From Escherichia phage VEc33, in sequence record NC_048818.1: 64,000 nt of DNA, one strand, 5' to 3'. How positions within the stretch are numbered: position 1 is the first letter of the stretch; each line of letters starts with the position of its first letter. The notes under the pieces were generated by a model. That model worked only from the letters and a program-made list of their open reading frames with translations, ran no database searches and was not told the DNA's origin. Position numbers and translations under genes: made by a program. Below are positions 124-45,191 of this stretch, one piece after another.

Positions 124-858
124 TTACGCAACTTTTAATTTCTCAATATATTGTTGCGGGCTGCAACTATATTCTGCGCGTTCTTCTTCGGTCATACCTT
201 CCCAACATAATTGCAGGCGGTCGGCTAGGAACTGATAATCATTATCATCGTCGAGAGATTCATCGATAAAGGTTTCACCTATCAATGTCACGCCGATTGA
301 TAGAATATCGTTAACGGCTTGTGCGTCCAGCGTTTTAAATCCGTATGACGCTGCCGCTGATAGCACGCCTTTATGATCATCAATCATTGTAAAATCAGCG
401 TTCGGATATAATTGTTTGAATAGCCCAAAATAGTAACTTTTATAAACTGCGTCTTTGCTGTGGTATATCTCGCTAACTTTATCAGCCTCAAAATATTTGT
501 GTAGTGTATCGCGGGAAAATACACGGATATTACTATCACCACGACCGCGCAACCCTTGTTTACGCAAATAATAATAGTCCGACTTGCTCATTAGTCGAGC
601 GGTGCAAATAATGTTTAAAGTATTTACGTCATTCATGCACTGGCGCATATATGTAACAAGGGGTAATAGTGTATCTTGCATTATTAAATCATGTTTGCAG
701 GCTTCATTTTTATACTTATTTAAATCTAAATTGCCCTCGCTATCAAAGCAAGGCGCTACACGATGAAACGAATTAATGATAGTGCCGTCCAGATCCCAAA
801 TCATGACGCGGGAAATATGCGGGAAATTACGGGTAATATTCGTTTTAACTTGATTCAT
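124..858 (-). CDS. dmp: HAD-family 5'-deoxyribonucleotidase (T5 dmp-like); the six-frame ORF extends to 900 but the likely start is the internal Met at 858
   Basis: DxDGT motif (WDLDGTII) near the N-terminus typical of HAD phosphatases; 244 aa from the internal Met with a GGAG-type RBS upstream; position next to the A1-like gene. Confidence 0.6.
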   Translation of the reverse strand: MNQVKTNITRNFPHISRVMIWDLDGTIINSFHRVAPCFDSEGNLDLNKYKNEACKHDLIMQDTLLPLVTYMRQCMNDVNTLNIICTARLMSKSDYYYLRKQGLRGRGDSNIRVFSRDTLHKYFEADKVSEIYHSKDAVYKSYYFGLFKQLYPNADFTMIDDHKGVLSAAASYGFKTLDAQAVNDILSIGVTLIGETFIDESLDDDNDYQFLADRLQLCWEGMTEEERAEYSCSPQQYIEKLKVA

Positions 859-938
859 TTTGTTACGTTCTCCATTAAAGGGATTTAGTTTATCCAGCAT
901 TACCCGCTATTTATAAGCGGGTAATAATAAATCAACTA

Positions 939-1682: not shown

Positions 1683-3353
1683 TTACGCAAAGAATTTACC
1701 GTTTTTAAAGTCAATCAAAGTGCGCTGACCGTTTGCATAGGTAATTAAATGCGTTTGCGTCCAGCTTGACGCGCCAACGTTGTAACCCATATCCAGACTA
1801 CCAGCAACGCCAGCGGTATATACGCCGCCATAAATGCTGGCGGTATGGGTATGCCCCGTGTTTAACTTGCCCAATTTTTTAAATTGTTTAGGATTGCCAC
1901 GACTGCCGTTAATGCCATTGTGACCGTGTACGCCGCATTCAATGCCTGCAATCTTGAAAGATTGATCAGTGGTCAGGAAAATGGCGTTAAATTCACAACC
2001 TGCAACCTTGCGCAACGCATAATCTAGCACGTTAAACGTTTCGTCGTGTTCACCGATTGCCGCGTAAATTGCAGCATTCAGGCGGTGATATAACTCGGCG
2101 TTTGCTGGATCGTCTTTGATGTTAGCATTACGATCATCAAGCCAACGGGATAGCGCCAAATCGTGATTAGATTCAACAATGATTGTTTGACTAAAATCAC
2201 GTTCCATTGATTCCAGCACGCGCCCCGTATCGATAAGATCATCCAGAACTTTATCACGTCCGGCGGCGTATTGTTTAGCTAGGAATACACCGGATGCGCG
2301 GTTATGATGATTGCGGGATGTAAAATCGTGAACGTCATGCACAAACTGATATTTTGGTTTAAGAATATCTACTAGCCCATAAGTATCACCATGCCCCCAA
2401 GATGCGGCGGCGCACTCCTCATCTAATTTTTCGGCGTGAATATCGCCATACTGCAAGCCTAAAACATGCCCCGATGTCTCATAGCATCCGGCAGGAGTAG
2501 CGCAAACGTTCAGATCATAAAACACCCCGCTTTCGTCCATTGTTTCAAGCTGGCGAACAAAAAATTCCCCGTCCTCGTCGAACTCGACAATCAGCGCACC
2601 GAAGTTATGCAGCGCCTCGGCCTTTTGTCCTGCTTTCTGCTGAATGTAGTTTTTTAACGTTGCCGTTCCGGTTGAATACATACGGCGCACTACTTCACCT
2701 TTTAAAGCTGGCACGCTTTCAGCGGTAATTTTAGCGTGACCAATTGCCAGCCCCTCAATATTTAAAGCCGTTGCAGTCTCGGCGAATCCAGAAAGCGGAT
2801 AATCTGCGGTTGGCAAAACATTAATTTCAGCCATGAAAGCAAAGCGGCGGTTATTTAAAAACACGTTTTTGCTGCAAATATATTTATCGAACGCGGAATC
2901 ATATTTGATTCCATCCGCACCTTCCCCATTTTGAAAACCGTTTTTATTATAAATATACTTAGAAACAAGCAAATCAGCACCGATATATTTAGCAAATTGC
3001 TCCAGTGAGGCTAAAAAGTTTTTATGCGGGAAAGTATTATTCTGAATCGATGTAATAATAAAGCGTTTACCTTGTTTTACTTCCCATTGCTCCACCGTAC
3101 TAGAAACAATCCCAGCCGCTTCTGGGCGCTCATCATTTTTAATGGCTTTTGCTACTTTTGCCGCTTTTGGTTTCGCTGGTTTATTTGCTTCCAACCAATC
3201 ACAAATGGCGGTGGAGTGTTTAGTAGTATCGTATACCGCTTTCGAAATATCGTCACAAACTTCCAATTTAGTGGCGCGCAGGCGTTTACCGTAGAAGTTA
3301 AAGTCAGCGGCCATTTTCAGGATAACGGTTTGTTTTTCTGCGGAAATAATCAT
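1683..3353 (-). CDS. A1: A1-like pre-early protein, calcineurin-like metallophosphatase/nuclease fold (556 aa)
   Basis: 556 aa, the length I recall for T5 A1; metallophosphoesterase-type motifs (GDIHAEKLDE, GNHD-like, GHTHT); RBS before the ATG. Confidence 0.6.
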   Translation of the reverse strand: MIISAEKQTVILKMAADFNFYGKRLRATKLEVCDDISKAVYDTTKHSTAICDWLEANKPAKPKAAKVAKAIKNDERPEAAGIVSSTVEQWEVKQGKRFIITSIQNNTFPHKNFLASLEQFAKYIGADLLVSKYIYNKNGFQNGEGADGIKYDSAFDKYICSKNVFLNNRRFAFMAEINVLPTADYPLSGFAETATALNIEGLAIGHAKITAESVPALKGEVVRRMYSTGTATLKNYIQQKAGQKAEALHNFGALIVEFDEDGEFFVRQLETMDESGVFYDLNVCATPAGCYETSGHVLGLQYGDIHAEKLDEECAAASWGHGDTYGLVDILKPKYQFVHDVHDFTSRNHHNRASGVFLAKQYAAGRDKVLDDLIDTGRVLESMERDFSQTIIVESNHDLALSRWLDDRNANIKDDPANAELYHRLNAAIYAAIGEHDETFNVLDYALRKVAGCEFNAIFLTTDQSFKIAGIECGVHGHNGINGSRGNPKQFKKLGKLNTGHTHTASIYGGVYTAGVAGSLDMGYNVGASSWTQTHLITYANGQRTLIDFKNGKFFA

Positions 3354-3731: not shown

Positions 3732-4139
3732 TTATTCGCCTGCGGCCTGTTTTACTTCATCGGCAACGCCTAACAATTGCGCTACTGCGTCCAGCGTTTC
3801 AAGTTTTGCACTTTCAAGGCTTGCCAAATCATCGGCGTCTTTGATAATGCCGGAATCAATAGCATGTTTAGCGATAACGCGCACATAGTGAGCTTTACGC
3901 ACAGAGCTACCGCCGCCAACTTTACGCGGCTTATCGCTTTTTTGATAGGCTTTTGCACTGGTCAATTTTGAGCGAACGGATACGGGGGAGGCCGCGCCTA
4001 CTGCTTTTGCAATCTCTTTCAGGCCGTCGCTATTTGCAAAATCTAAACCGTTTTCGTTGATTAACTGCTGGTACATGGTAACAGCTTTCTGAGTGTTTTC
4101 TTCATTCCATGCGAATTTTGCGGTTTTTGCGTTAGTCAT
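3732..4139 (-). CDS. pre-early protein, possible A2-like DNA-binding protein (135 aa)
   Basis: Position immediately upstream (in transcript order) of the A1-like gene; basic central region; hairpin terminator downstream at about 3690-3720. Confidence 0.4.
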   Translation of the reverse strand: MTNAKTAKFAWNEENTQKAVTMYQQLINENGLDFANSDGLKEIAKAVGAASPVSVRSKLTSAKAYQKSDKPRKVGGGSSVRKAHYVRVIAKHAIDSGIIKDADDLASLESAKLETLDAVAQLLGVADEVKQAAGE

Positions 4140-4242
4140 GGTAAAAACTCCTATTAGTTTAATTTAAGGGATTAGATTAGATTAACTTAATGTTAATCGT
4201 TATATCCCCCTGAAATAAGAGGGATATAAAGTTAGCACTAAA

Positions 4243-5371: not shown

Positions 5372-5797
5372 TTATCCACTTGACTTTTATTTTCCAGTGG
5401 ATAACTACTTATTTTATGAAATAAATTAATTGACTTTTATTTGTTAGTATGCATCGGAAAGATAGCAGACTAATAATTGCTAGAATGATAATCATGCTGG
5501 TGGATTGTAACGACCTGAATTATTAGCAGACTATTAATCACGGAAAATCTCATTAGCTAACTAACTATTTCCTGAGTTATAATATACATATAAATTAATG
5601 AGAAATAATAACTATAATAAATAATAACCGATAGGAATAATAACTATAAGAAACTATCGGCCTAAGTGAGAACCACTATCATTTAAGTTATCCACAAGTT
5701 TATTAACAGCACTTTTTGATTTGACACGATAGGCGGCGATATAAGCACTTATCCACAGACTTATCCACATGTTATCCTACTGTATAAATATACAAGA
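5372..5797. promoter_or_regulatory. divergent control region with at least five DnaA-box matches (TTATCCACA/T) and a LexA-box-like palindrome (CTGTATAAATATACAA at 5780-5795)
   Basis: TTATCCACT at 5372-5380 and reverse at 5396-5404; TTATCCACA at 5688-5696, 5749-5757, 5761-5769; CTGT-N8-ACAA adjacent. Confidence 0.6.
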
Positions 5798-6062: not shown

Positions 6063-7073
6063 ATGAGGCTTTATAAACCAGATAACGCAACCGTCTTAAA
6101 AGGTGCGCTGCGTAACCTGCTGGACGGTAGCAAGTCAACCAGCATTAAACATTTTATTAACAAGGCTGAAACTATTCATCAAAACTTTTTTGATGACTAT
6201 GACGCCTATGATATGGATGGTTTTTTGCCATTATACAAGTATGGGGCAACGCTTGTTTTATATAATCGGGATTGCCATATCTTTACAGGCAGGGGAGCGG
6301 GGCCGGATACCGATTTTATTATTGCGCAGGGTAATAATATTGTTGCGTATCATAGCAATTCAGGCCGTCAATCATTTAATATAAATGGTTTTGAGCTTAT
6401 TGGGCTTGATCTGATAAACGGACTTTCTAGTATTGAGGGATTTTTAGATGTTATCTGGAAGTATTTACCAGCTGGATGGCATAAGCCGGATAACGACGGA
6501 TCTCAATATACTGGTATAATGGCTTTTGATGGCGACGGTAATTTTTTGTTACCCCGGGAGCTATACCCATATATTTATGATGGGGATATAGAAAGCGCTG
6601 GTTTTTCTTTCTGGAAAGATGAAGATCAGATTATTGACAGCGTAGAAAACCATGCTGTAAATTCTAACACTCAAAGCGTTAAAACTCAAACTACTGAAAA
6701 CAAAGGAAAAAACACCATGACCAAGATCGCTAATATTGTTGCCGCTAATAAATCCGCTGTTGTAAACGCTGCAAAACTGGAAGCGGGTAAAATTGCACTG
6801 ACTCAAATTACGAAAGTAGCGGCTAAAAAAGCACCGTTTATGATTAAAGGTTATATTGATACACCCATCGGTCGAGTAGTGATTGCCAACCTGCTGAGCG
6901 TAGCGGTTGACCAGTACGCCCCAAGTAACCAAAAGGCGAAAGCGGTGGCAGGTGCAGCTATGGAAGCGGCTATGTTAGAAATGGTACAAAGTTTTAATAT
7001 CGCTGAAATGATTGATGAAATGGTGAAAGGTATTGATATTTCTACTTTTACCACTAGCACCGAAAGCGAGTAA
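6063..7073 (+). CDS. hypothetical protein (336 aa), first gene of the rightward block
   Basis: Long ORF with GAGG RBS; Ala/Lys-rich C-terminal half; no recognisable catalytic motif. Confidence 0.55.
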   Translation: MRLYKPDNATVLKGALRNLLDGSKSTSIKHFINKAETIHQNFFDDYDAYDMDGFLPLYKYGATLVLYNRDCHIFTGRGAGPDTDFIIAQGNNIVAYHSNSGRQSFNINGFELIGLDLINGLSSIEGFLDVIWKYLPAGWHKPDNDGSQYTGIMAFDGDGNFLLPRELYPYIYDGDIESAGFSFWKDEDQIIDSVENHAVNSNTQSVKTQTTENKGKNTMTKIANIVAANKSAVVNAAKLEAGKIALTQITKVAAKKAPFMIKGYIDTPIGRVVIANLLSVAVDQYAPSNQKAKAVAGAAMEAAMLEMVQSFNIAEMIDEMVKGIDISTFTTSTESE

Positions 7074-7140
7074 TAACTAATTTAGCGGGGATTGTTTCCC
7101 CGCTTTATTATTCCCTTGTTAATTAATAGGAGGCTAATAA

Positions 7141-7635
7141 ATGGCTGCGGAAAAATATGGCTTCTCACTGGGAGAAGTGAGCACAGCTAAACACGATATG
7201 ATCATTTTGGTTGATTGTCATACGGGTTACTGCGGGGAAGGGAATACCGAGGAATATTTTGTTCCTGCTGGTACGGATCTGGACGCTTTAGCTCACGAAA
7301 TGGCTATTGATAATGCTTCTCGTTTTGGTAGCGATGGCTATGAAGACGAAGATACTGGCGAATGGTATGAAAATGAAAACGTATATGCAAGCCTTTATCA
7401 TTATCAATTAAGTAAATCCGGCACATATGTAAACGGCGGCGATCCTATTAATTCCGTCATGAAATTAATTATTAAATATGGTGGCGTCGAGATAATTGAT
7501 AACAAAGCGGTAATATATGCAAACCGATTAAAACAGCTTGTTTATATTCCTGATAGTACCCGATGGGAGGAATACGCTGTTTTGCATGACGAATTGAAAC
7601 GATGTTTCAATATTGAATCCTTACAAGTAGTCTAA
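7141..7635 (+). CDS. hypothetical protein (164 aa)
   Basis: ORF with AGGAGG RBS; followed by a hairpin terminator. Confidence 0.55.
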   Translation: MAAEKYGFSLGEVSTAKHDMIILVDCHTGYCGEGNTEEYFVPAGTDLDALAHEMAIDNASRFGSDGYEDEDTGEWYENENVYASLYHYQLSKSGTYVNGGDPINSVMKLIIKYGGVEIIDNKAVIYANRLKQLVYIPDSTRWEEYAVLHDELKRCFNIESLQVV

Positions 7636-7650
7636 TGTAAAGTTTTGTAA

Positions 7651-7678
7651 AGGCCGCCTCTTATGGTGGCCTTTTTTG
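7651..7678 (+). terminator. Rho-independent terminator
   Basis: GC hairpin AAAGGCCGCC...GGTGGCCTTTTTTGTT with T-run. Confidence 0.6.
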
Positions 7679-7741
7679 TTATAATGCCTTTACACCGTTT
7701 GAGGACGGTTGAAAATTTCCCAAAAAAATTGGAGGCTTAAA

Positions 7742-7972
7742 ATGGTTGCTTATTCTTCTGCTAGTCATCTGTTCACCGCTCAAGGCTGGGTGTCTAATCG
7801 CGTCATCATTCATGAAATGGTGCAGGAGTTCGGCATTGCTAAAACGTATAATACCATTCAGGAACTATATAACGCTGATAAAATCGATCAGCAAACGGCT
7901 GGCTTTTTGCTGGATACCCTGAAAGCGGAACACTGTACCAAAAAACAAGCGGCAAAAATTGTTTTAATGTAA
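7742..7972 (+). CDS. hypothetical small protein (76 aa from the RBS-supported ATG)
   Basis: GGAGG RBS 7 nt upstream of ATG 7742; the six-frame ORF begins further upstream at 7709. Confidence 0.45.
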   Translation: MVAYSSASHLFTAQGWVSNRVIIHEMVQEFGIAKTYNTIQELYNADKIDQQTAGFLLDTLKAEHCTKKQAAKIVLM

Positions 7973-8021
7973 TTAATAACGGGGCGTTACTTTCGCCCCA
8001 CTAACTAGGGGAGTAGTACAA

Positions 8022-8171
8022 ATGGTTATTTTTCGGGCTATTTTAGCTGGTATCTTGGGCGCCATTTTATCGTTGTTTGCAATAGCTTTCGGTGTTCACG
8101 CCGTTATTATCGGCGCGGGTATCGCCGCATTTTCTTATCTGCTGGGCTGCATGACTGGTAAAGGAGAATAA
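8022..8171 (+). CDS. small hydrophobic peptide (49 aa), absent from the ORF track
   Basis: ATG after GGGGAG RBS; translation MVIFRAILAGILGAILSLFAIAFGVHAVIIGAGIAAFSYLLGCMTGKGE; stop overlaps the RBS of the next gene. Confidence 0.4.
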   Translation: MVIFRAILAGILGAILSLFAIAFGVHAVIIGAGIAAFSYLLGCMTGKGE

Positions 8172-8173
8172 AA

Positions 8174-8386
8174 ATGATCCGCAACGTTTCTCTTGCTCGT
8201 TCGAAAGGCTTTAAGCTGGTGGATGTTAACACGTTCGAGCGGGAAGATTGTAAAATCGAATATGTAGCACGTAACAAAAATGCCTTTCGTGTTACCGAGA
8301 AAAAATTTGACAAGCGCGGCAACGTGATCGCTGAAACGGTTAAACACTTTGCCACCTTTTACGCTGCGTTTCGGGGAGTGTTATAA
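8174..8386 (+). CDS. hypothetical protein (70 aa)
   Basis: AAGGAG RBS; translationally coupled to neighbours. Confidence 0.5.
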   Translation: MIRNVSLARSKGFKLVDVNTFEREDCKIEYVARNKNAFRVTEKKFDKRGNVIAETVKHFATFYAAFRGVL

Positions 8387-8387
8387 A

Positions 8388-8732
8388 ATGGTTATTTATG
8401 AAGGCAATCGCTTTGTTGCTAATTGCCGTCCGGCATTATTAGCAAACTATTTAAATCAGCTTTCCCCAGCTTATAAGGGCGTTATTAATATTTATGAGGG
8501 CAAGGCGCATTATAAAATTAATGCGGTCGTTGCCCGTGAACTAGCGTTTCAATTTTTGACCTTTGCATCTTGTGACGTTCAGGTTATGGGTGAAGCATTA
8601 ATTGCAGAAAATGAAGATGATTTTATTAATATTTTCCGCAAGGTATGCACTGAGCGCCTAGTAATGAAAGGCGCGTATATTCAATCAACCGCTGACAGTA
8701 TTGAAACAGCGTTTCGAAAGGTGGCGCAATGA
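8388..8732 (+). CDS. hypothetical protein (114 aa from internal ATG with RBS)
   Basis: GGAG RBS before ATG 8388; the six-frame ORF begins at 8349. Confidence 0.5.
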   Translation: MVIYEGNRFVANCRPALLANYLNQLSPAYKGVINIYEGKAHYKINAVVARELAFQFLTFASCDVQVMGEALIAENEDDFINIFRKVCTERLVMKGAYIQSTADSIETAFRKVAQ

Positions 8733-8832
8733 GATTATATATTTTCGTTGGTAATGTTGAGGCAGCTAATGATTCCGCTGGTGGCGATAACGTTCGCCGC
8801 TATTGGCAAAAATATATTTACTAGGAGTTATT

Positions 8833-9027
8833 ATGAGCAATAAAATTGTTGTGACCAAAACTACTACGATGGTTGATGTTTTTTACGTGCCCGATACGCC
8901 GGAAAACCGACAAGCGGTCGAGCGTGGCGAATATGATAAAGTGATTTATGATCACGATGGTTATTATCAACATTTGGTAGATTCCTACGGGGAGGAGGAA
9001 AAAATCACGCACCGACTACCCGACTAA
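8833..9027 (+). CDS. hypothetical small protein (64 aa)
   Basis: AGGAG RBS before ATG 8833. Confidence 0.4.
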   Translation: MSNKIVVTKTTTMVDVFYVPDTPENRQAVERGEYDKVIYDHDGYYQHLVDSYGEEEKITHRLPD

Positions 9028-9283
9028 TAATCACGGGGCGCAACTATCAGGAAGTGCCCCCAATTTTCAAATGAGAATGATTATCATTTGACCGCGCCCG
9101 CGATAGTTAGCCTGCTAATGGTTAGGGTGTTACGTGTCGCCTTGTGTGATCGTTAGCGTGCTAACTAATTTTCAAGCCTCCTCCAATTTTGCCCTTGTTT
9201 TAGTATCCCCACCAAAATTAAACGCGTCAGAATGCGATCTAGGACGTTTTAGGCCTATATTAGAATTATTCACTGCATAGGAA

Positions 9284-9303
9284 TACTGTATAAATATACA
9301 GTA
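9284..9303. promoter_or_regulatory. LexA (SOS) box-like palindrome TACTGTATAAATATACAGTA
   Basis: Perfect CTGT-N8-ACAG with AT-rich spacer. Confidence 0.5.
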
Positions 9304-9313
9304 GAATAACCTG

Positions 9314-9394
9314 GGGATAAGTCTGTGGATAACGCTTCAAAATGGCTAGGATTCTGTCAAGTCAAATCGTGCTGTTGATAAGTCTGTGGATAAC
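9314..9394. promoter_or_regulatory. DnaA-box pair in reverse orientation (TGTGGATAA at 9324-9332 and 9386-9394), each preceded by GATAAGTC
   Basis: Reverse complements of TTATCCACA; inverted copy of the 5741-5769 module. Confidence 0.55.
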
Positions 9395-9627
9395 TTAAAT
9401 AGCAGTGTTTCTCACTTCCGTTTTTAAATGCGAATCATTATCATTCGCATTTCACTAGCTAACCGATAATCACTCCACGTTTTAAATGAGAATCATTTCA
9501 CTTCTTGAATAGTTCTCATTCCCTTTCTTAAATGCAAATCATTATCATTCGCATTTCACTTTTTAAATGAGATTGATTCTCATTATCATTCGCATTCAGG
9601 CGAGCAGGGCAATTGCCCTGCGCTTTT

Positions 9628-10228
9628 GTGCAAATCCGACATTTGCCCCCATGGGTTACGCGTGGGCATGTATGTGCAAATCCGACAATTTTTGGTAGTG
9701 TGCAAATCCGACCCGAAAAATTTTTATAGTGTGCAAATCCGACAACGAATTTTCCCAAAAACTCCAGCAATCACGAACTGCGTTCGAATCCTGTGGAATT
9801 AGCTAGAGTATGTGCAAATCCGACATGTGTTGAGCTATGCGAATCCGACAAGATTTTTGTGACTTCGATTGGAGGGTGTGTGATTGTATAAGTTTGAGGA
9901 GAAGATGAGAGAGCGAGAGAAATTTTGGGACTAGAAGGATGTGGGCGCAGGATTGGTGCGGAGCACCTGATTTGCGTGGATTTTGGGGAAGAGTTGAGAT
10001 AATTTGGGAAGATTTGAGATAGGCGCAGAAAAAGTAAAATTTTATTAGCAAAATGGCGCAAAATAGCTTGACAAGTGAAAATTCTTGTGGCTCTAAAAAC
10101 TCAGGCAATCATGGGCCTTCGGCCCGAAATAATGCTGCTATTTTCAGGAGAGTAAGAGTTCCTAAAAACTTAGGCGTTTGTGCAAATCCGACCATAAATT
10201 TCTAGAATATCAATGTGCAAATCCGACA
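9628..10228. repeat. about 8 dispersed direct repeats of GTGCAAATCCGACA
   Basis: Copies at 9628, 9674, 9699, 9731, 9812, 9837 (variant), 10180, 10215; irregular spacing. Confidence 0.6.
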
Positions 10229-10254
10229 GTAATTTCTAGAAATGTGTTTTCGAA

Positions 10255-10355
10255 AAATGTCTCCTAGAAATAACCGCCCTCCCTATAACCGCCCTATATT
10301 AACCGCCTAGTATATGCTCCTAGAAACTTAGGAGAACCGCCCTAGAAAGAGGGAG
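10255..10355. repeat. short tandem-like repeats of AACCGCCCT / CCTAGAAA
   Basis: AACCGCC(C)T four times and CTAGAAA four times within 100 bp. Confidence 0.45.
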
Positions 10356-10680
10356 TATTTCGTGAGAACTCTGGAGTTTCTAGGAAAGTGTTGTGTCATC
10401 CTAGCAGATGAGCGGCAACAGGTGTATCATCTTGAACACAGATATTGCCTTTAAATATTATAAGGTAAATTAAAAGTAAAGTAGCCCCCATTACATGTGT
10501 GCTTACTCGTGGGGCGCGTGATTAATTACGTAAGTCCTCGACTGTCATACCCCTGTTGCTCGGTCGCAAAGAGTTAACGAAGTCTCGTGTAATAATCATC
10601 GCCCCTAGAGTTCAAAACAAAAGTTGTTTTTAATCTATGTGATTATTATAACATGCAGATGGATGAACGTCAAGTAACGT

Positions 10681-11391
10681 TTATTCTTTTACTTTGGCTT
10701 TGAGTTTGATACCAAGAGATGCGAAGTAGATATAAGTTGCTAAATAGGACATAGCAGATCCTGTCTCTTCGTAAGAGAGAGTTCCTTTCACGTACCTCTT
10801 ATATTCTGGCTCTAGATTAATAATCGTAGTACTTGGCAATCCTAGCGAATTACATAATGATTTGAATGTTTCTTTATCTCTATGAATCGCATAGTGAATG
10901 GCTTTTTCTGTAGGAGTTAATTCTAGATCTTTGGTAATGGCTACGTGCAAACTCGCTATAGTCATGCCAATTCCACGATACGTTTCCTCCTTATTAAGAG
11001 AAGGTTTCTGTTTCTCTAACTCAGGAAGATGTGCAAATTCTCCCTTCTTTCTCGGAATCTTATCATCACTAAGTAATGCTGTTAAGAAATCTGTTTCTTC
11101 ATAGGCTGGGAGCACTTCATCAATCAATACTAGAATAGAACTAGCATTGATACCTTTCGCACTAGGATCTAAAGATTTTAATGCTTTATTAGTTTCAACG
11201 TAGGAGCCTGCTAATACTACCTTAGAGCTATTCCTATCATATTTAATTTTATTAGCTTCCCAACGTGCAGGACGATAATCAGATAGAAACATTACCGCAT
11301 ATTTTTGTTCATCTGTTAGCTCGGAGAAACATTTCTGGTTTGATTCTTTTGCTAGCGCAATAAGGTGCTTTAGTTTTTCTGCTTTATTCAT
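10681..11391 (-). CDS. hypothetical protein (236 aa)
   Basis: Long ORF; first of the AT-rich leftward early block. Confidence 0.55.
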   Translation of the reverse strand: MNKAEKLKHLIALAKESNQKCFSELTDEQKYAVMFLSDYRPARWEANKIKYDRNSSKVVLAGSYVETNKALKSLDPSAKGINASSILVLIDEVLPAYEETDFLTALLSDDKIPRKKGEFAHLPELEKQKPSLNKEETYRGIGMTIASLHVAITKDLELTPTEKAIHYAIHRDKETFKSLCNSLGLPSTTIINLEPEYKRYVKGTLSYEETGSAMSYLATYIYFASLGIKLKAKVKE

Positions 11392-44489: not shown

Positions 44490-45191
44490 TCAAATTTTCA
44501 TTTTTTCGATCATAGCTGCAACACAATAGCTTTCAACTAAGGCATCAAATGCAGGATCATGCTTAACCGGATAGATCCCATAACGAATAGTGTCCATCTT
44601 CTCCATTTTAGCTATTGCCCAGCTAATACCTTCGGTCTCTAGAGCCTTATAACTGTATCCAGCTTGCATCCAGAGATTACGAAGAGATCGAACATTACCC
44701 AAATTCCAGAATTTCCACGGAACTACCTCTTCATTGGTTCCAGCATGGAACGTGTTTGCAGAGTAGATAGTCATATCAAACTCTGGGCCATTGCCATAAT
44801 ACAAAGCATTTTCGCCTAGAGCCAACTCCATAATATTTTGAGCCATAGAGAAGGCAGCATAGTTTGAGCCTAATTTATTAGTGCAATGATGTTTACCATT
44901 TTGGAAGGCAATCAGTTTTGGATTACGTTCCTTCATAGCTTCCATAATGTGGATAGCAGACGGGCTATTTTTAGCTTGATCCATCCAGAATGCTAGAGTA
45001 GATGCTGTAACTTTGGCACCAGAATTAAGCTGATCCTGCACATCCAAAGTAACAAATACTAGATCAGGGTCTTTATCAACCCCATGCATAGCCACAAAAG
45101 CGAAAGAAGGCATTACGATATGAGTAGTACCACAATCTCCTGGAGTTCCTAGAGATTCAATATCTAGCATACCAAATGGTTTTACTTTCAT
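44490..45191 (-). CDS. DEDDh-family 3'-5' exonuclease (233 aa)
   Basis: LDIESLG (Exo I) and HDPAFDA (Exo III) motifs. Confidence 0.6.
   Translation of the reverse strand: MKVKPFGMLDIESLGTPGDCGTTHIVMPSFAFVAMHGVDKDPDLVFVTLDVQDQLNSGAKVTASTLAFWMDQAKNSPSAIHIMEAMKERNPKLIAFQNGKHHCTNKLGSNYAAFSMAQNIMELALGENALYYGNGPEFDMTIYSANTFHAGTNEEVVPWKFWNLGNVRSLRNLWMQAGYSYKALETEGISWAIAKMEKMDTIRYGIYPVKHDPAFDALVESYCVAAMIEKMKI

What the first reader, a model, noticed from the sequence alone, without database searches (positions are those of the whole stretch)
9060..9600. Array of Fur-box-like palindromes in the terminal-repeat non-coding region
Five or more copies of an AT-rich palindrome (consensus AATGCGAATCATTATCATTCGCATT) lie in an ORF-free stretch. 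Its core AATGATAATGATT / GAATCATTATC closely resembles the E. coli Fur box GATAATGATAATCATTATC. T5-type phages are known to adsorb to the iron-regulated receptor FhuA, so multiple Fur-like sites on incoming phage DNA could titrate Fur or make local transcription iron-responsive. This is a hypothesis from motif resemblance only.
Basis: partly seen in the sequence, partly recalled or inferred. Interest (0 to 1): 0.55.

Follow-up and report, generated by a model that had tools for sequence, protein, structure and literature searches.

The report
Fur-box array in T5 injection-stop region
A dense cluster of near-perfect binding sites for Fur, the host's iron-sensing repressor, lies in the gene-free stretch where T5-type phages pause DNA injection; the same cluster occurs in unrelated large phages, which gives a testable lead on an old puzzle, although no binding has been shown.

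Summary
Window 9060-9600 is the left part of the T5-type "injection stop signal" non-coding region. The palindromes are T5's known DRE/DRC/pal repeats.

Five palindromic units give ten hits to a Fur matrix I built from 16 E. coli Fur-repressed promoters. Seven score 15.5-20.9 bits (training sites 10-23), against 0.02 expected. Overlapping hits lie 6 bp apart, as in real Fur operators. A consensus of 130 phage units derived without the Fur matrix (AAATGAGAATCATTCTCATTT) equals published Fur-box consensuses.

All enterobacterial T5-likes keep the array while whole units are gained and lost. The same array occurs in unrelated myoviruses (phAPEC8-, phi92- and rV5-like, and a 350-kb Klebsiella phage) in which no A2 homologue was seen. 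Fur-box identity is therefore strongly supported.

BtuB-using BF23 has the array, no promoter or gene lies beneath it, and T5 destroys host DNA within minutes.

Most likely host Fe-Fur polymerises here, beside a consensus LexA box and DnaA-box pairs, forming a nucleoprotein block at the first-step-transfer boundary. Binding and function are untested. I found no paper linking these repeats to Fur.

The parts
9036..9068 (+). GC-rich hairpin (GGGGCGC..GTGCCCC) followed by AATTTTC, just after the last + strand ORF (stop at 9027). Possibly a terminator.
   Evidence: Read from the sequence. Conserved in T5-likes (first block). Not flagged by the terminator scan because its loop exceeds 8 nt.
9069..9089 (.). 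Fur-box unit P1, a 21-bp palindrome AAATGAGAATGATTATCATTT containing the 7-1-7 core TGAGAATgATTATCA.
   Evidence: Fur-matrix hits at 9067 (16.8 bits) and 9073 (18.7 bits), 6 bp apart. One mismatch to AATGAGAATNATTCTCATT. Retained, with the flanking GACCGCGCCCG, even in Vibrio phage VCPH.
9284..9303 (.). LexA (SOS) box-like palindrome TACTGTATAAATATACAGTA.
   Evidence: Zero mismatches to TACTGTATAWWTATACAGTA, with 0 expected by chance. CTGT-N8-ACAG is nearly invariant across T5-likes.
9312..9332 (-). DnaA-box pair, 3 bp apart: TTATCCCCA and the perfect box TTATCCACA (IRD' of Davison).
   Evidence: All 5 perfect DnaA boxes in the 64-kb window lie in the two inverted-repeat modules, against 0.62 expected. 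Described for T5 in bioRxiv 10.1101/866236.
9374..9393 (-). Second DnaA-box pair: TTATCAACA and the perfect box TTATCCACA (IRC').
9426..9452 (.). Fur-box unit P2, a 27-bp palindrome with the classical F-F-x-R hexamer layout (GCGAAT GATAAT G ATTCGC on the - strand). Lies inside the 67-bp direct repeat DRE1 (9409-9475).
   Evidence: Fur hits at 9424 (15.8 bits) and 9430 (16.2 bits), 6 bp apart. Repeat families D3 and D5 and inverted repeat I1.
9484..9520 (.). Degenerate unit P3: AAATGAGAATCATT and its partner GAATAGTTCTCATT, split by a spacer.
   Evidence: Fur hit at 9482 (10.3 bits). The unit number at this point varies among relatives.
9530..9556 (.). Fur-box unit P4, a 27-bp palindrome AAATGCAAATCATTATCATTCGCATTT, inside DRE2 (9513-9579).
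   Evidence: Fur hits at 9528 (15.5 bits) and 9534 (17.5 bits). 87% identical over 55 nt to an intergenic segment of Phapecoctavirus genomes.
9565..9596 (.). Composite Fur-box unit P5: AAATGAGATTGATTCTCATT fused to TCATTATCATTCGCATT.
   Evidence: Three hits phased by 6 bp, at 9563 (10.9 bits), 9569 (20.9 bits, the best in the 64-kb window) and 9575 (12.8 bits).
9604..9621 (+). Perfect GC hairpin GCAGGGC-AATT-GCCCTGC followed by GCTTTTG. Terminator-like, and closes the array on the right.
   Evidence: Invariant in T5-likes.
9624..10235 (+). Seven copies of GTGCAAATCCGAC (DRD repeats), spanning the inferred end of the terminal repeat at about 9887. Context only, not part of the Fur array.
   Evidence: family D1. 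The repeat end is inferred by homology to chee24. Named.

Best explanation
**What it is.** The palindromes are canonical operators for the host ferric uptake regulator Fur. They are arranged as an unusually dense array of five units, about ten overlapping dimer sites. The array sits in the non-coding "injection stop signal" region of a T5-type terminal repeat.

**Proposed mechanism.** Once the first-step-transfer DNA is in the cytoplasm, pre-existing Fe2+-Fur binds the high-affinity cores and polymerises over roughly 9424-9596, plus the outlying site at 9069. Together with LexA on the consensus SOS box (9284) and DnaA on two box pairs (9312-9393), this builds a large host-protein-DNA complex. 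The complex is bracketed by two GC hairpins and lies about 300 bp inside the end of the terminal repeat. No promoter or gene lies under the array, and it sits where two transcription units converge. It therefore most likely acts on DNA transactions rather than as a classical gene repressor. It could be a barrier or insulator between pre-early and early DNA, or the host-dependent part of the injection pause. Either role would depend on iron-loaded Fur.

**Status of each step.**
- Shown: motif identity, phasing, density, retention through unit turnover, and presence in unrelated phages.
- Inferred: Fur occupancy in vivo.
- Speculative: the barrier or injection-stop role.
For: **Matrix scoring.** A palindromic 19-bp matrix learned from 16 E. 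coli K-12 Fur-repressed promoter regions recovers GATAATGATAATCATTATC. In the window, 7 of the 9 best hits in 64 kb fall in 9067-9587, at 15.5-20.9 bits. Training sites scored 10.3-23.0 bits, or 6.6-21.1 when each was left out in turn.

**Chance.** Expected hits of at least 15 bits in the region are 0.02.

**Phasing and density.** Overlapping hits are exactly 6 bp apart, as in the native promoters. Those promoters hold only 0-3 hits of at least 15 bits each.

**Consensus.**
- E. coli 7-1-7 sites with their flanks give AAAATGATAATCATTATCATTTT.
- A motif derived from 130 distinct phage units without the Fur matrix gives TAAATGAGAATCATTCTCATTTA.
- The two matrices correlate at r=0.864 in register, against a maximum of 0.788 in 2000 column permutations. 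A secondary peak appears at an offset of +/-6.

**Literature.** The only two papers in the library containing these strings list them as Fur boxes. They are the Xanthomonas consensus AATGAgAATcATTctCATT (PMC1790865) and Acinetobacter FUR boxes (PMC3055841).

**Conservation.** Every enterobacterial T5-like locus with enough flank keeps a cluster of 3-7 hits of at least 13 bits, with best hits of 16.6-24.6 bits. Unit number changes among these relatives, and the central base varies freely.

**Other phages.** The same units occur in Phapecoctavirus, phi92, rV5-like, Certrevirus and a 350-kb Klebsiella phage, always in long ORF-free regions.

**Phage-protein candidates.** A2 homologues are confined to 100-128-kb T5-like genomes. 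No small protein is shared between the window and the myovirus sequence I held.

**T5 itself.** The array spans 9549-9718, and Davison's estimated shear point for first-step DNA, 9618, lies inside it.
Against: - No binding data exist. Everything here is sequence inference.
- My matrix is home-made and was seeded with the classical consensus.
- The copies are duplicates of one another, and the T5-likes share this region by descent, so the counts are not independent events.
- The T5/myovirus similarity keeps the order and the 8-bp spacing of two units. That points to horizontal transfer rather than convergence.
- The phage units conserve the outer AAA/TTT flanks more, and the TGA positions less, than E. 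coli sites do. The information profiles correlate at only r=0.38. The GCG arms of the 27-mers also depart from GAT.
- In E. coli, 83% of Fur clusters overlap promoters. None is evident here.
- More distant T5-like phages (A1 37-49% identical) have no array.
- Vibrio phage VCPH has a different repeat (CAACTGTTG-type) in the same slot. Fur sites are therefore not a general requirement of A1/A2-type phages.
- A protein bound to DNA that has already entered the cell gives no obvious way to halt DNA still outside it.
Confidence: 0.55

Rival explanations
1. Fur sponge. The array titrates Fe-Fur away from its targets, derepressing iron uptake (FhuA, TonB, siderophores) or other Fur-controlled functions. 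Alternatively, it makes a nearby phage transcript iron-responsive.
For: The array is denser than any of 16 native operators. There are two copies per genome. After replication, hundreds of genomes would offer thousands of dimer sites, comparable to cellular Fur (abundance, and the Fur titration assay as a precedent, are from my own knowledge). T5-likes and the myoviruses both encode an iron-dependent ribonucleotide reductase, NrdD, shared at 46% identity. T5 makes its nucleotides de novo.
Against: At the first-step stage there is a single copy. Half the host chromosome is digested within 4 minutes, so derepressing host genes cannot help T5. The array is present in BtuB-using BF23 and in phages that do not use Fur-regulated receptors. 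The other Fur-like hits in the window lie inside ORFs at about the chance rate, so no phage Fur regulon is evident. No promoter lies under the array.
Confidence: 0.15
2. The units are operators or iterons for a different protein: a phage-encoded one (for example the essential DNA-binding protein A2) or another host factor. The likeness to Fur boxes would then be incidental or mimicry.
For: A2 is a predicted DNA-binding protein required for second-step transfer. The units conserve flanks and GCG arms beyond what E. coli Fur sites conserve. Gain and loss of whole units resembles iteron arrays. Vibrio phage VCPH carries a different repeat in the same slot.
Against: The units match the Fur consensus over 19-21 bp, flanks included. 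The same units occur in myoviruses, while A2 homologues were found only in T5-like genomes. No protein other than NrdD and an endolysin is shared with 50 kb of Mt1B1_P17 plus the array flanks of the other myoviruses. None of nine pre-early proteins tested, nor the ORF next to the Mt1B1_P17 array, has a recognisable DNA-binding or Fur-family domain in Pfam. The inner bases of the Zur box (TTATA) do not fit; that consensus is from my own knowledge.
Confidence: 0.12
3. Structural nucleic-acid element. The palindromes act as hairpins or cruciforms in DNA, or as hairpins in a read-through RNA. They would serve the injection pause, the nearby strand interruption, replication or packaging of the terminal repeat, with no sequence-specific protein needed.
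For: The single strand of 9405-9600 folds at -24.9 kcal/mol against -9.6 +/- 2.4 for shuffles, z = -6.5. The region is the classical injection-stop candidate, described as rich in repeats and palindromes. GC hairpins flank the array.
Against: The stems are short and AT-rich. What is conserved is the base identity of the Fur core: AAT/ATT is invariant, while the central base is free. That is the signature of protein contacts, not of pairing. The 6-bp overlapping register has no structural meaning. P3, P5 and many units in relatives are not good palindromes yet keep Fur half-sites.
Confidence: 0.1
4. The Fur boxes repress weak promoters for short non-coding transcripts, in the manner of ryhB. 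An example would be a transcript starting near 9597 and ending at the 9604-9621 hairpin and T-run.
For: A promoter-like TTTAAA-16-TATCAT at 9562-9589 overlaps the strongest Fur hit and is followed by a terminator-like hairpin. The ryhB operator strongly resembles the units. In the myoviruses each array is followed by a conserved GC-rich stem-loop. In the Klebsiella jumbo phage, Fur boxes sit directly upstream of TTTACAGTACTG, the same motif that follows a consensus TTGCAA-17-TATAAT promoter.
Against: The promoter match is only 9 of 12, with no good -35, and such matches are common in AT-rich DNA (10 found against 4.8 expected). The product would be about 30 nt. No Rfam family matches. In Phapecoctavirus and phi92 the strong promoter points towards the array from the other side.
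Confidence: 0.08

Closest known systems
E. coli Fur operator clusters (for example fepA-fes, fhuF, fiu, ryhB and gpmA; Chen et al. 2007, PMC2189734)
   Same: The same recognition sequence in its 19-bp, 7-1-7 and 9-1-9 descriptions. Multiple overlapping sites are offset by 6 bp. Scores lie in the range of proven sites.
   Different: There are more strong sites per cluster than in any of the 16 native promoters examined. There is no overlapping promoter and no regulated gene. The array lies on the DNA of a virulent phage, in a terminal repeat.
T5 injection stop signal, Repeat Region 3: DRE1/DRE2, DRC copies and palE-palI (Heusterspreute 1987 and Wang 2005, as cited by Davison; bioRxiv 10.1101/866236)
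   Same: Homologous sequence in the same place: after the IRD'-spacer-IRC' DnaA-box module and before the DRD repeats. The T5 array at 9549-9718 contains the estimated shear point, 9618.
   Different: In that literature the repeats are described structurally, and their function is called impossible to guess. Only the DnaA boxes are assigned to a host protein. Fur, LexA, iron and SOS are never mentioned.
Fur boxes on temperate phages: upstream of sitABCD on lambdoid coliphages (PMC6969025), and the stx1 promoter (my own knowledge)
   Same: A host Fur site carried on phage DNA.
   Different: Those are single operators at the promoter of a cargo gene on a prophage, doing ordinary iron regulation. 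Here there is an array without a gene on virulent phages.
Virulent phages that use host regulators through their binding sites: PhoB boxes and NtcA sites in cyanophages (my own knowledge, not checked here)
   Same: The concept. A lytic phage wires itself to a host nutrient-sensing transcription factor.
   Different: Those sites sit in promoters of phage auxiliary genes. No gene is controlled here, and the site multiplicity is far higher.
Protein roadblocks and titrating site arrays, such as lac operator arrays, plasmid iteron 'handcuffing' loci and the Fur titration assay (my own knowledge)
   Same: Many tandem high-affinity sites whose effect comes from bound protein mass or from sequestering the protein.
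   Different: Those use the element's own protein or are artificial. This one would borrow a host metal sensor.

Membership tests
Fur box / Fur-binding-site cluster | Match to the Fur recognition sequence (19-bp GATAATGATAATCATTATC, or 7-1-7 TGATAATnATTATCA) at the level of proven sites. | tested here: met
   Seven hits of 15.5-20.9 bits against training sites of 10.3-23.0 bits. The motif derived without the Fur matrix correlates with the E. coli matrix at r=0.864, against a null maximum of 0.788. It is identical to the published consensus AATGAgAATcATTctCATT.
Fur box / Fur-binding-site cluster | Clustered overlapping sites offset by 6 (or 3) bp, reflecting dimers on different faces of the helix. 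| tested here: met
   The offsets are 9067/9073, 9424/9430, 9528/9534 and 9563/9569/9575. The 16 E. coli promoters show the same signature. The criterion comes from Chen et al. (abstract).
Fur box / Fur-binding-site cluster | Overlap with sigma-70 promoter elements of a regulated gene (83% of E. coli clusters). | tested here: not met
   Only a 9-of-12 promoter-like match at 9562-9589. The array lies between convergent units with hairpins on both sides.
Fur box / Fur-binding-site cluster | Metal-dependent binding of Fur, shown by footprint, gel shift or ChIP. | not testable with these tools
   No experimental data found. Ten literature searches gave no paper linking T5-type repeats to Fur.
Fur box / Fur-binding-site cluster | Iron- or fur-dependent change in an output such as transcription. 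| not testable with these tools
   No output gene is identifiable. An experiment is needed.
T5 injection stop signal region (Repeat Region 3) | A large ORF-free block at the inner end of the left terminal repeat, after the last pre-early ORF. | tested here: met
   The gene map is dmp, A1, A2 and the + strand ORFs to 9027, then no credible ORF until 10681. The repeat end is inferred at about 9887.
T5 injection stop signal region (Repeat Region 3) | The order of modules: IRD'-spacer-IRC' with paired DnaA boxes, then the DRE repeats, then the DRD repeats, with homology to T5. | tested here: met
T5 injection stop signal region (Repeat Region 3) | A cis-acting arrest of DNA transfer at about 8% of the genome. 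| not testable with these tools
   The exact signal has never been mapped, and functional studies are lacking.
Replication-origin iterons | Direct repeats of one orientation at regular spacing, next to an initiator gene and an unwinding element. | tested here: not met
   The units are palindromic, spacing is irregular (29-58 bp), and there is no adjacent initiator gene. Davison notes that T5 origins map near the genome centre.
Zur box (the other Fur-family operator of E. coli) | GAAATGTTATAWTATAACATTTC (consensus from my own knowledge). | tested here: not met
   By direct comparison the outer AAATG/CATTT arms agree, but four of the five inner bases of each half differ (AGAAT or ATAAT against TTATA). 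No matrix test was done.

The most novel reading that the evidence does not exclude
Arrays of consensus Fur boxes are a previously unrecognised class of cis-element shared by several lineages of large virulent enterobacterial phages. In T5-type phages they, together with the adjacent LexA and DnaA sites, are the long-sought host-factor-binding core of the injection stop signal. Two-step DNA transfer, or the insulation of the terminal repeat, would then depend on iron-loaded host Fur.
Probability: 0.2. Interest if true: 0.85.

Novelty: new variant of a known kind. Interest (0 to 1): 0.62.

Why it matters
How T5 stops DNA transfer after 8% of its genome has been open since the 1960s. The stop needs no new protein synthesis, and complete ejection occurs in vitro, so a pre-existing host component is suspected (both points are from my own knowledge). 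The only candidate put forward so far is DnaA.

Reading the most conserved repeats of that region as consensus Fur operators, next to a consensus LexA box, names two more abundant, pre-existing host proteins. It turns a descriptive "forest of palindromes" into a short list of binding and genetic experiments.

The same array occurs in phAPEC8-, phi92- and rV5-like phages and in a jumbo phage. That suggests lytic phages use the host iron sensor more widely than is known. This would matter for phage behaviour in iron-limited niches such as the gut and blood, and for phage therapy.

If Fur does not bind, the finding reduces to an annotation of known repeats.

Tried and rejected
- **BLAST against E. 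coli genomes.** Searching window 9420-9600 against 5,426 genomes to find native look-alike operators gave only two marginal hits. Short AT-rich queries are not suited to this.
- **Published Fur site tables.** They were not held as text, so I built the matrix from K-12 promoter regions instead.
- **Exact-pattern scan of IMG/VR.** It is too unspecific in AT-rich DNA to be useful.
- **Rfam.** Nothing matched the window region or six related loci.
- **Pfam.** Nine pre-early proteins and the ORF next to the Mt1B1_P17 array gave only DUFs or no match.
- **Arrays in distant T5-likes.** I looked in phages with A1 37-49% identical and found none. The one apparent cluster, in L181, is a coding Asp-Phe repeat.
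- **A rule that every lineage has its own palindrome array.** Only L178 and VCPH show one, so I dropped it as a generalisation.
- **'repeat_region' in phage anhysbys.** This annotation is a 38-bp feature, not a terminal repeat.
- **Davison 2015 (Bacteriophage 5:e1086500).** It could not be read.
- **Other single Fur-like hits.** Those at 44795, 55512 and 56645 lie inside ORFs at about the chance rate.
Full report
**What the window is.** The window is the left end of a T5-type phage (Demerecviridae, Tequintavirus). The 9000-10400 stretch is 94-97% identical to phages chee24 and HASG4, where it lies in the annotated left terminal repeat. The gene order is as follows:
- dmp at 124-900 (- strand)
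- A1 at 1683-3353 (- strand)
- A2 at 3732-4139 (- strand)
- a divergent promoter and repeat region
- + strand ORFs from 6063 to 9027
- no credible ORF until a - strand gene that ends at 10681

By homology to chee24, the terminal repeat ends near 9887. The finding therefore lies in what the T5 literature calls Repeat Region 3, the candidate injection stop signal (iss). Davison describes it as a nest of repeats and palindromes (palC/D, IRD'-spacer-IRC', DRE1/2, DRC copies, palE-J, DRD repeats). [quoted passage not shown]

**The observation.** Five related units are present:
- P1, 9069-9089: a 21-bp palindrome.
- P2, 9426-9452, and P4, 9530-9556: 27-bp palindromes inside the 67-bp direct repeats 9409-9475 and 9513-9579.
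- P3, 9484-9520: a split, degenerate copy.
- P5, 9565-9596: a 20-bp unit fused to the right half of the 27-mer.

The others are the shorter form. The published-type consensus AATGAGAATNATTCTCATT, with up to 3 mismatches, occurs four times in 64 kb, all here, against 0.10 expected.

**Is it a Fur box?** Published site tables were not available as text. I therefore took the intergenic regions upstream of 16 established Fur-repressed E. coli K-12 transcription units: fepA-fes, fepD-entS, fepB-entC, fhuA, fur, gpmA, fiu, fhuE, tonB, cirA, exbB, ryhB, sodA, fecA, fhuF and sufA. From these I trained a palindromic 19-bp matrix.
- The matrix converged on the textbook GATAATGATAATCATTATC. Training scores were 10.3-23.0 bits, and 6.6-21.1 bits when each site was left out in turn.
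- Scanning the window, 7 of the 9 best hits in 64 kb lie in the finding. They are at 9569 (20.9), 9073 (18.7), 9534 (17.5), 9067 (16.8), 9430 (16.2), 9424 (15.8) and 9528 (15.5). Three more score 10-13 bits.
- Dinucleotide shuffles give 0.02 hits of at least 15 bits in the region (maximum 1 in 1000) and 1.2 in the whole window. They never give more than 2 such hits within 600 bp.
- Overlapping hits are exactly 6 bp apart. The native promoters show the same signature, and Chen et al. describe it for Fur clusters.
- None of the 16 native promoters holds more than three hits of at least 15 bits.

Re-aligning the E. coli sites on the 7-1-7 centre, with their flanks, gives AAAATGATAATCATTATCATTTT. 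A motif found with random starting seeds and no Fur matrix, in 35 phage arrays (130 distinct units), is TAAATGAGAATCATTCTCATTTA. The two matrices correlate at r=0.864 in register. The best of 2000 palindrome-preserving column permutations reaches 0.788, and there is a secondary peak at +/-6.

A literal search of about 8 million papers for six unit strings returned only two papers, and both list the strings as Fur boxes. One gives the Xanthomonas consensus AATGAgAATcATTctCATT, which is identical to the phage consensus. The other lists Acinetobacter FUR boxes. On sequence grounds the identification is about as good as it can be.

**Conservation.** Using A1 as an anchor I collected 56 loci. Every enterobacterial T5-like (A1 at least 66% identical) with enough flank has a cluster of 3-7 hits of at least 13 bits at the expected place, with best hits of 16.6-24.6 bits. 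This includes the 121,750-bp T5-length contig, where the array spans 9549-9718 and contains Davison's estimated shear point, 9618.

The alignment shows whole units being gained and lost. The central base of each unit varies freely, while AAT/ATT stays fixed. In two more distant phages (A1 66-67% identical) the array persists although the flanks no longer align.

Phages with A1 only 37-49% identical have no array. Vibrio phage VCPH keeps P1, the LexA-like box, the DnaA pairs and DRD-like repeats. Where the main array should be, it has a different repeat of the CAACTGTTG type.

**Beyond T5.** The P4-P5 segment is 87% identical to an intergenic segment of Phapecoctavirus genomes. Searching with that segment finds 507 phage records. 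I inspected:
- phi92 (Justusliebigvirus)
- an rV5-like Vequintavirus
- a Pectobacterium Certrevirus
- a 350-kb Klebsiella phage
- an Aliivibrio phage

All except the last carry 3-8 strong, 6-bp-phased Fur-matrix hits. The Aliivibrio phage has one weak pair. In every case the hits sit in ORF-free regions of 0.4-1.8 kb. In Phapecoctavirus and phi92 these regions again lie between convergent genes.

Two adjacent units share order and spacing between T5-likes and Phapecoctavirus. The module was therefore probably exchanged horizontally rather than invented twice.

A2, the pre-early DNA-binding protein, has homologues only in 100-128-kb T5-like genomes. The window shares only NrdD and an endolysin with the myovirus sequence I held. 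A common phage-encoded ligand is therefore unlikely, and a host ligand is favoured.

**Neighbours.** Two other host-factor motifs stand between P1 and P2.
- At 9284-9303 there is a perfect match to the SOS-box pattern TACTGTATAWWTATACAGTA, with 0 expected. It is nearly invariant in T5-likes.
- There are two pairs of DnaA boxes. All five perfect TTATCCACA boxes in the window lie in the two inverted-repeat modules, against 0.62 expected. This agrees with Davison.

GC hairpins stand at 9036-9068 and 9604-9621. Consensus sites for three abundant host DNA-binding proteins are thus packed into about 530 bp.

**What it probably does.**
- A classical repressor role is unlikely. There is no convincing promoter (a single 9-of-12 match), and no gene lies downstream before the hairpin.
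There is one copy at entry, and half the host DNA is gone in 4 minutes.
- The FhuA rationale fails because BtuB-using BF23 has the array.

I therefore favour a bound-protein role. Fe-Fur, which is known to polymerise from strong sites (my own knowledge), would form a block with LexA and DnaA at the boundary between pre-early DNA and the rest. That block would act as a barrier or insulator to polymerases coming from either side, and/or as the host-dependent part of the injection pause.

Choosing Fur would make the block iron-dependent. The different repeat in VCPH suggests that occupancy of the slot matters more than iron sensing as such.

I hold the binding claim at roughly 0.85. I hold the combined statement, that the array is selected for Fur binding and acts through a nucleoprotein block, at 0.55. 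The injection-stop role specifically I put at about 0.2. One weakness is that proteins bound to DNA already inside the cell offer no simple way to stop DNA still outside.

**Novelty.** The repeats themselves are known. Their reading as Fur operators, the consensus LexA box beside them, and the occurrence of the array in other phage families were absent from everything I could search. Davison's text has no mention of Fur, LexA, iron or SOS. Papers from 2023 and 2026 still describe the region only as repeats whose role is untested. The library lacks most subscription papers, including Heusterspreute 1987, Wang 2005 and Davison 2015, so prior notice cannot be excluded.

Noticed in passing
window 9284-9303 and 5778-5797: A perfect match to the E. 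coli SOS-box pattern TACTGTATAWWTATACAGTA lies next to the DnaA-box module, with 0 expected by chance. It is nearly invariant in T5-likes; only the central AAAT/ATTT flips. A second copy in Repeat Region 2 has a damaged right arm (ACAAGA). I found no mention of LexA in the T5 sources I could read.
   Followed up: partly
L001 2478-2590 (Mt1B1_P17); L194 1497-1610 (phi92); L195 1539-1563 and 1669-1700 (rV5-like); L196 1466-1575 (Certrevirus); L198 1498-1620, 1784-1810, 2010-2036 and 2882-2908 (350-kb Klebsiella phage): The same Fur-box units form arrays in long ORF-free regions of myoviruses unrelated to T5. Scores reach 22.9 bits, with 6-bp phasing. BLAST with the Phapecoctavirus array matches 507 phage records.
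   Followed up: partly
L001 2590-2640; L194 1615-1660; L195 1563-1610 and 1700-1740; L196 1580-1625: In the myoviruses each array is followed by AGAAT, then a GC-rich nested stem-loop whose loop carries the conserved GGTG(A/T)TTGTCTC. The stems differ between genera in ways that look compensatory. No Rfam family matches. In Phapecoctavirus and phi92 a strong TTGACA-17-TATACT promoter on the opposite strand reads towards it.
   Followed up: partly
L198 1780-2050: In the Klebsiella jumbo phage, Fur boxes sit directly upstream of TTTACAGTACTG. The same motif follows a consensus TTGCAA-17-TATAAT promoter. There the boxes may overlap real promoters.
   Followed up: no
L200 1640-1800 (Vibrio phage VCPH): This Vibrio T5-like keeps P1, the LexA-like box, the DnaA pairs and DRD-like repeats. 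Where enterobacterial phages have the Fur array, it has about ten copies of a CAACTGTTG-type near-palindrome. L178 has ten copies of CTAATATTAG at 4057-4210, about 5.8 kb upstream of A1.
   Followed up: partly
window 228-252: A two-hit, 6-bp-phased Fur-like site (17.7 and 15.9 bits) lies inside the dmp ORF, 228 bp from the left end of the window. It is also present in T5. One such site per 64 kb is about the chance expectation.
   Followed up: partly
window 10645-10673, - strand: The best promoter-like match of the region (TTGACG-17-TATAAT with an upstream TG, 11 of 12) lies just after the stop codon of the - strand gene ending at 10681. It points leftwards into the ORF-free region, towards the DRD repeats and the Fur array.
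   Followed up: no
window 9105-9170: Two copies of a TTAGC-NN-GCTAA palindrome (GTTAGCCTGCTAAT and GTTAGCGTGCTAAC) lie between P1 and the LexA-like box. They may be palC/palD of the T5 nomenclature. Their ligand is unknown.
   Followed up: no
window 9600-9625: The invariant hairpin GCAGGGCAATTGCCCTGC followed by GCGC sits at about 7.9-8.0% of a T5-length genome. From memory, this is close to the position of the first major strand interruption (nick) and to the end of first-step-transfer DNA. I did not check this against the literature.
   Followed up: no
L193 54-78 and 239-257: Mt1B1_P17 has further Fur-like units (GCGAATGAGAATAATTATCATTCGT, 18.9 bits) in the 1.2-kb ORF-free start of the deposited record. 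Whether this is a physical genome end is unknown.
   Followed up: no
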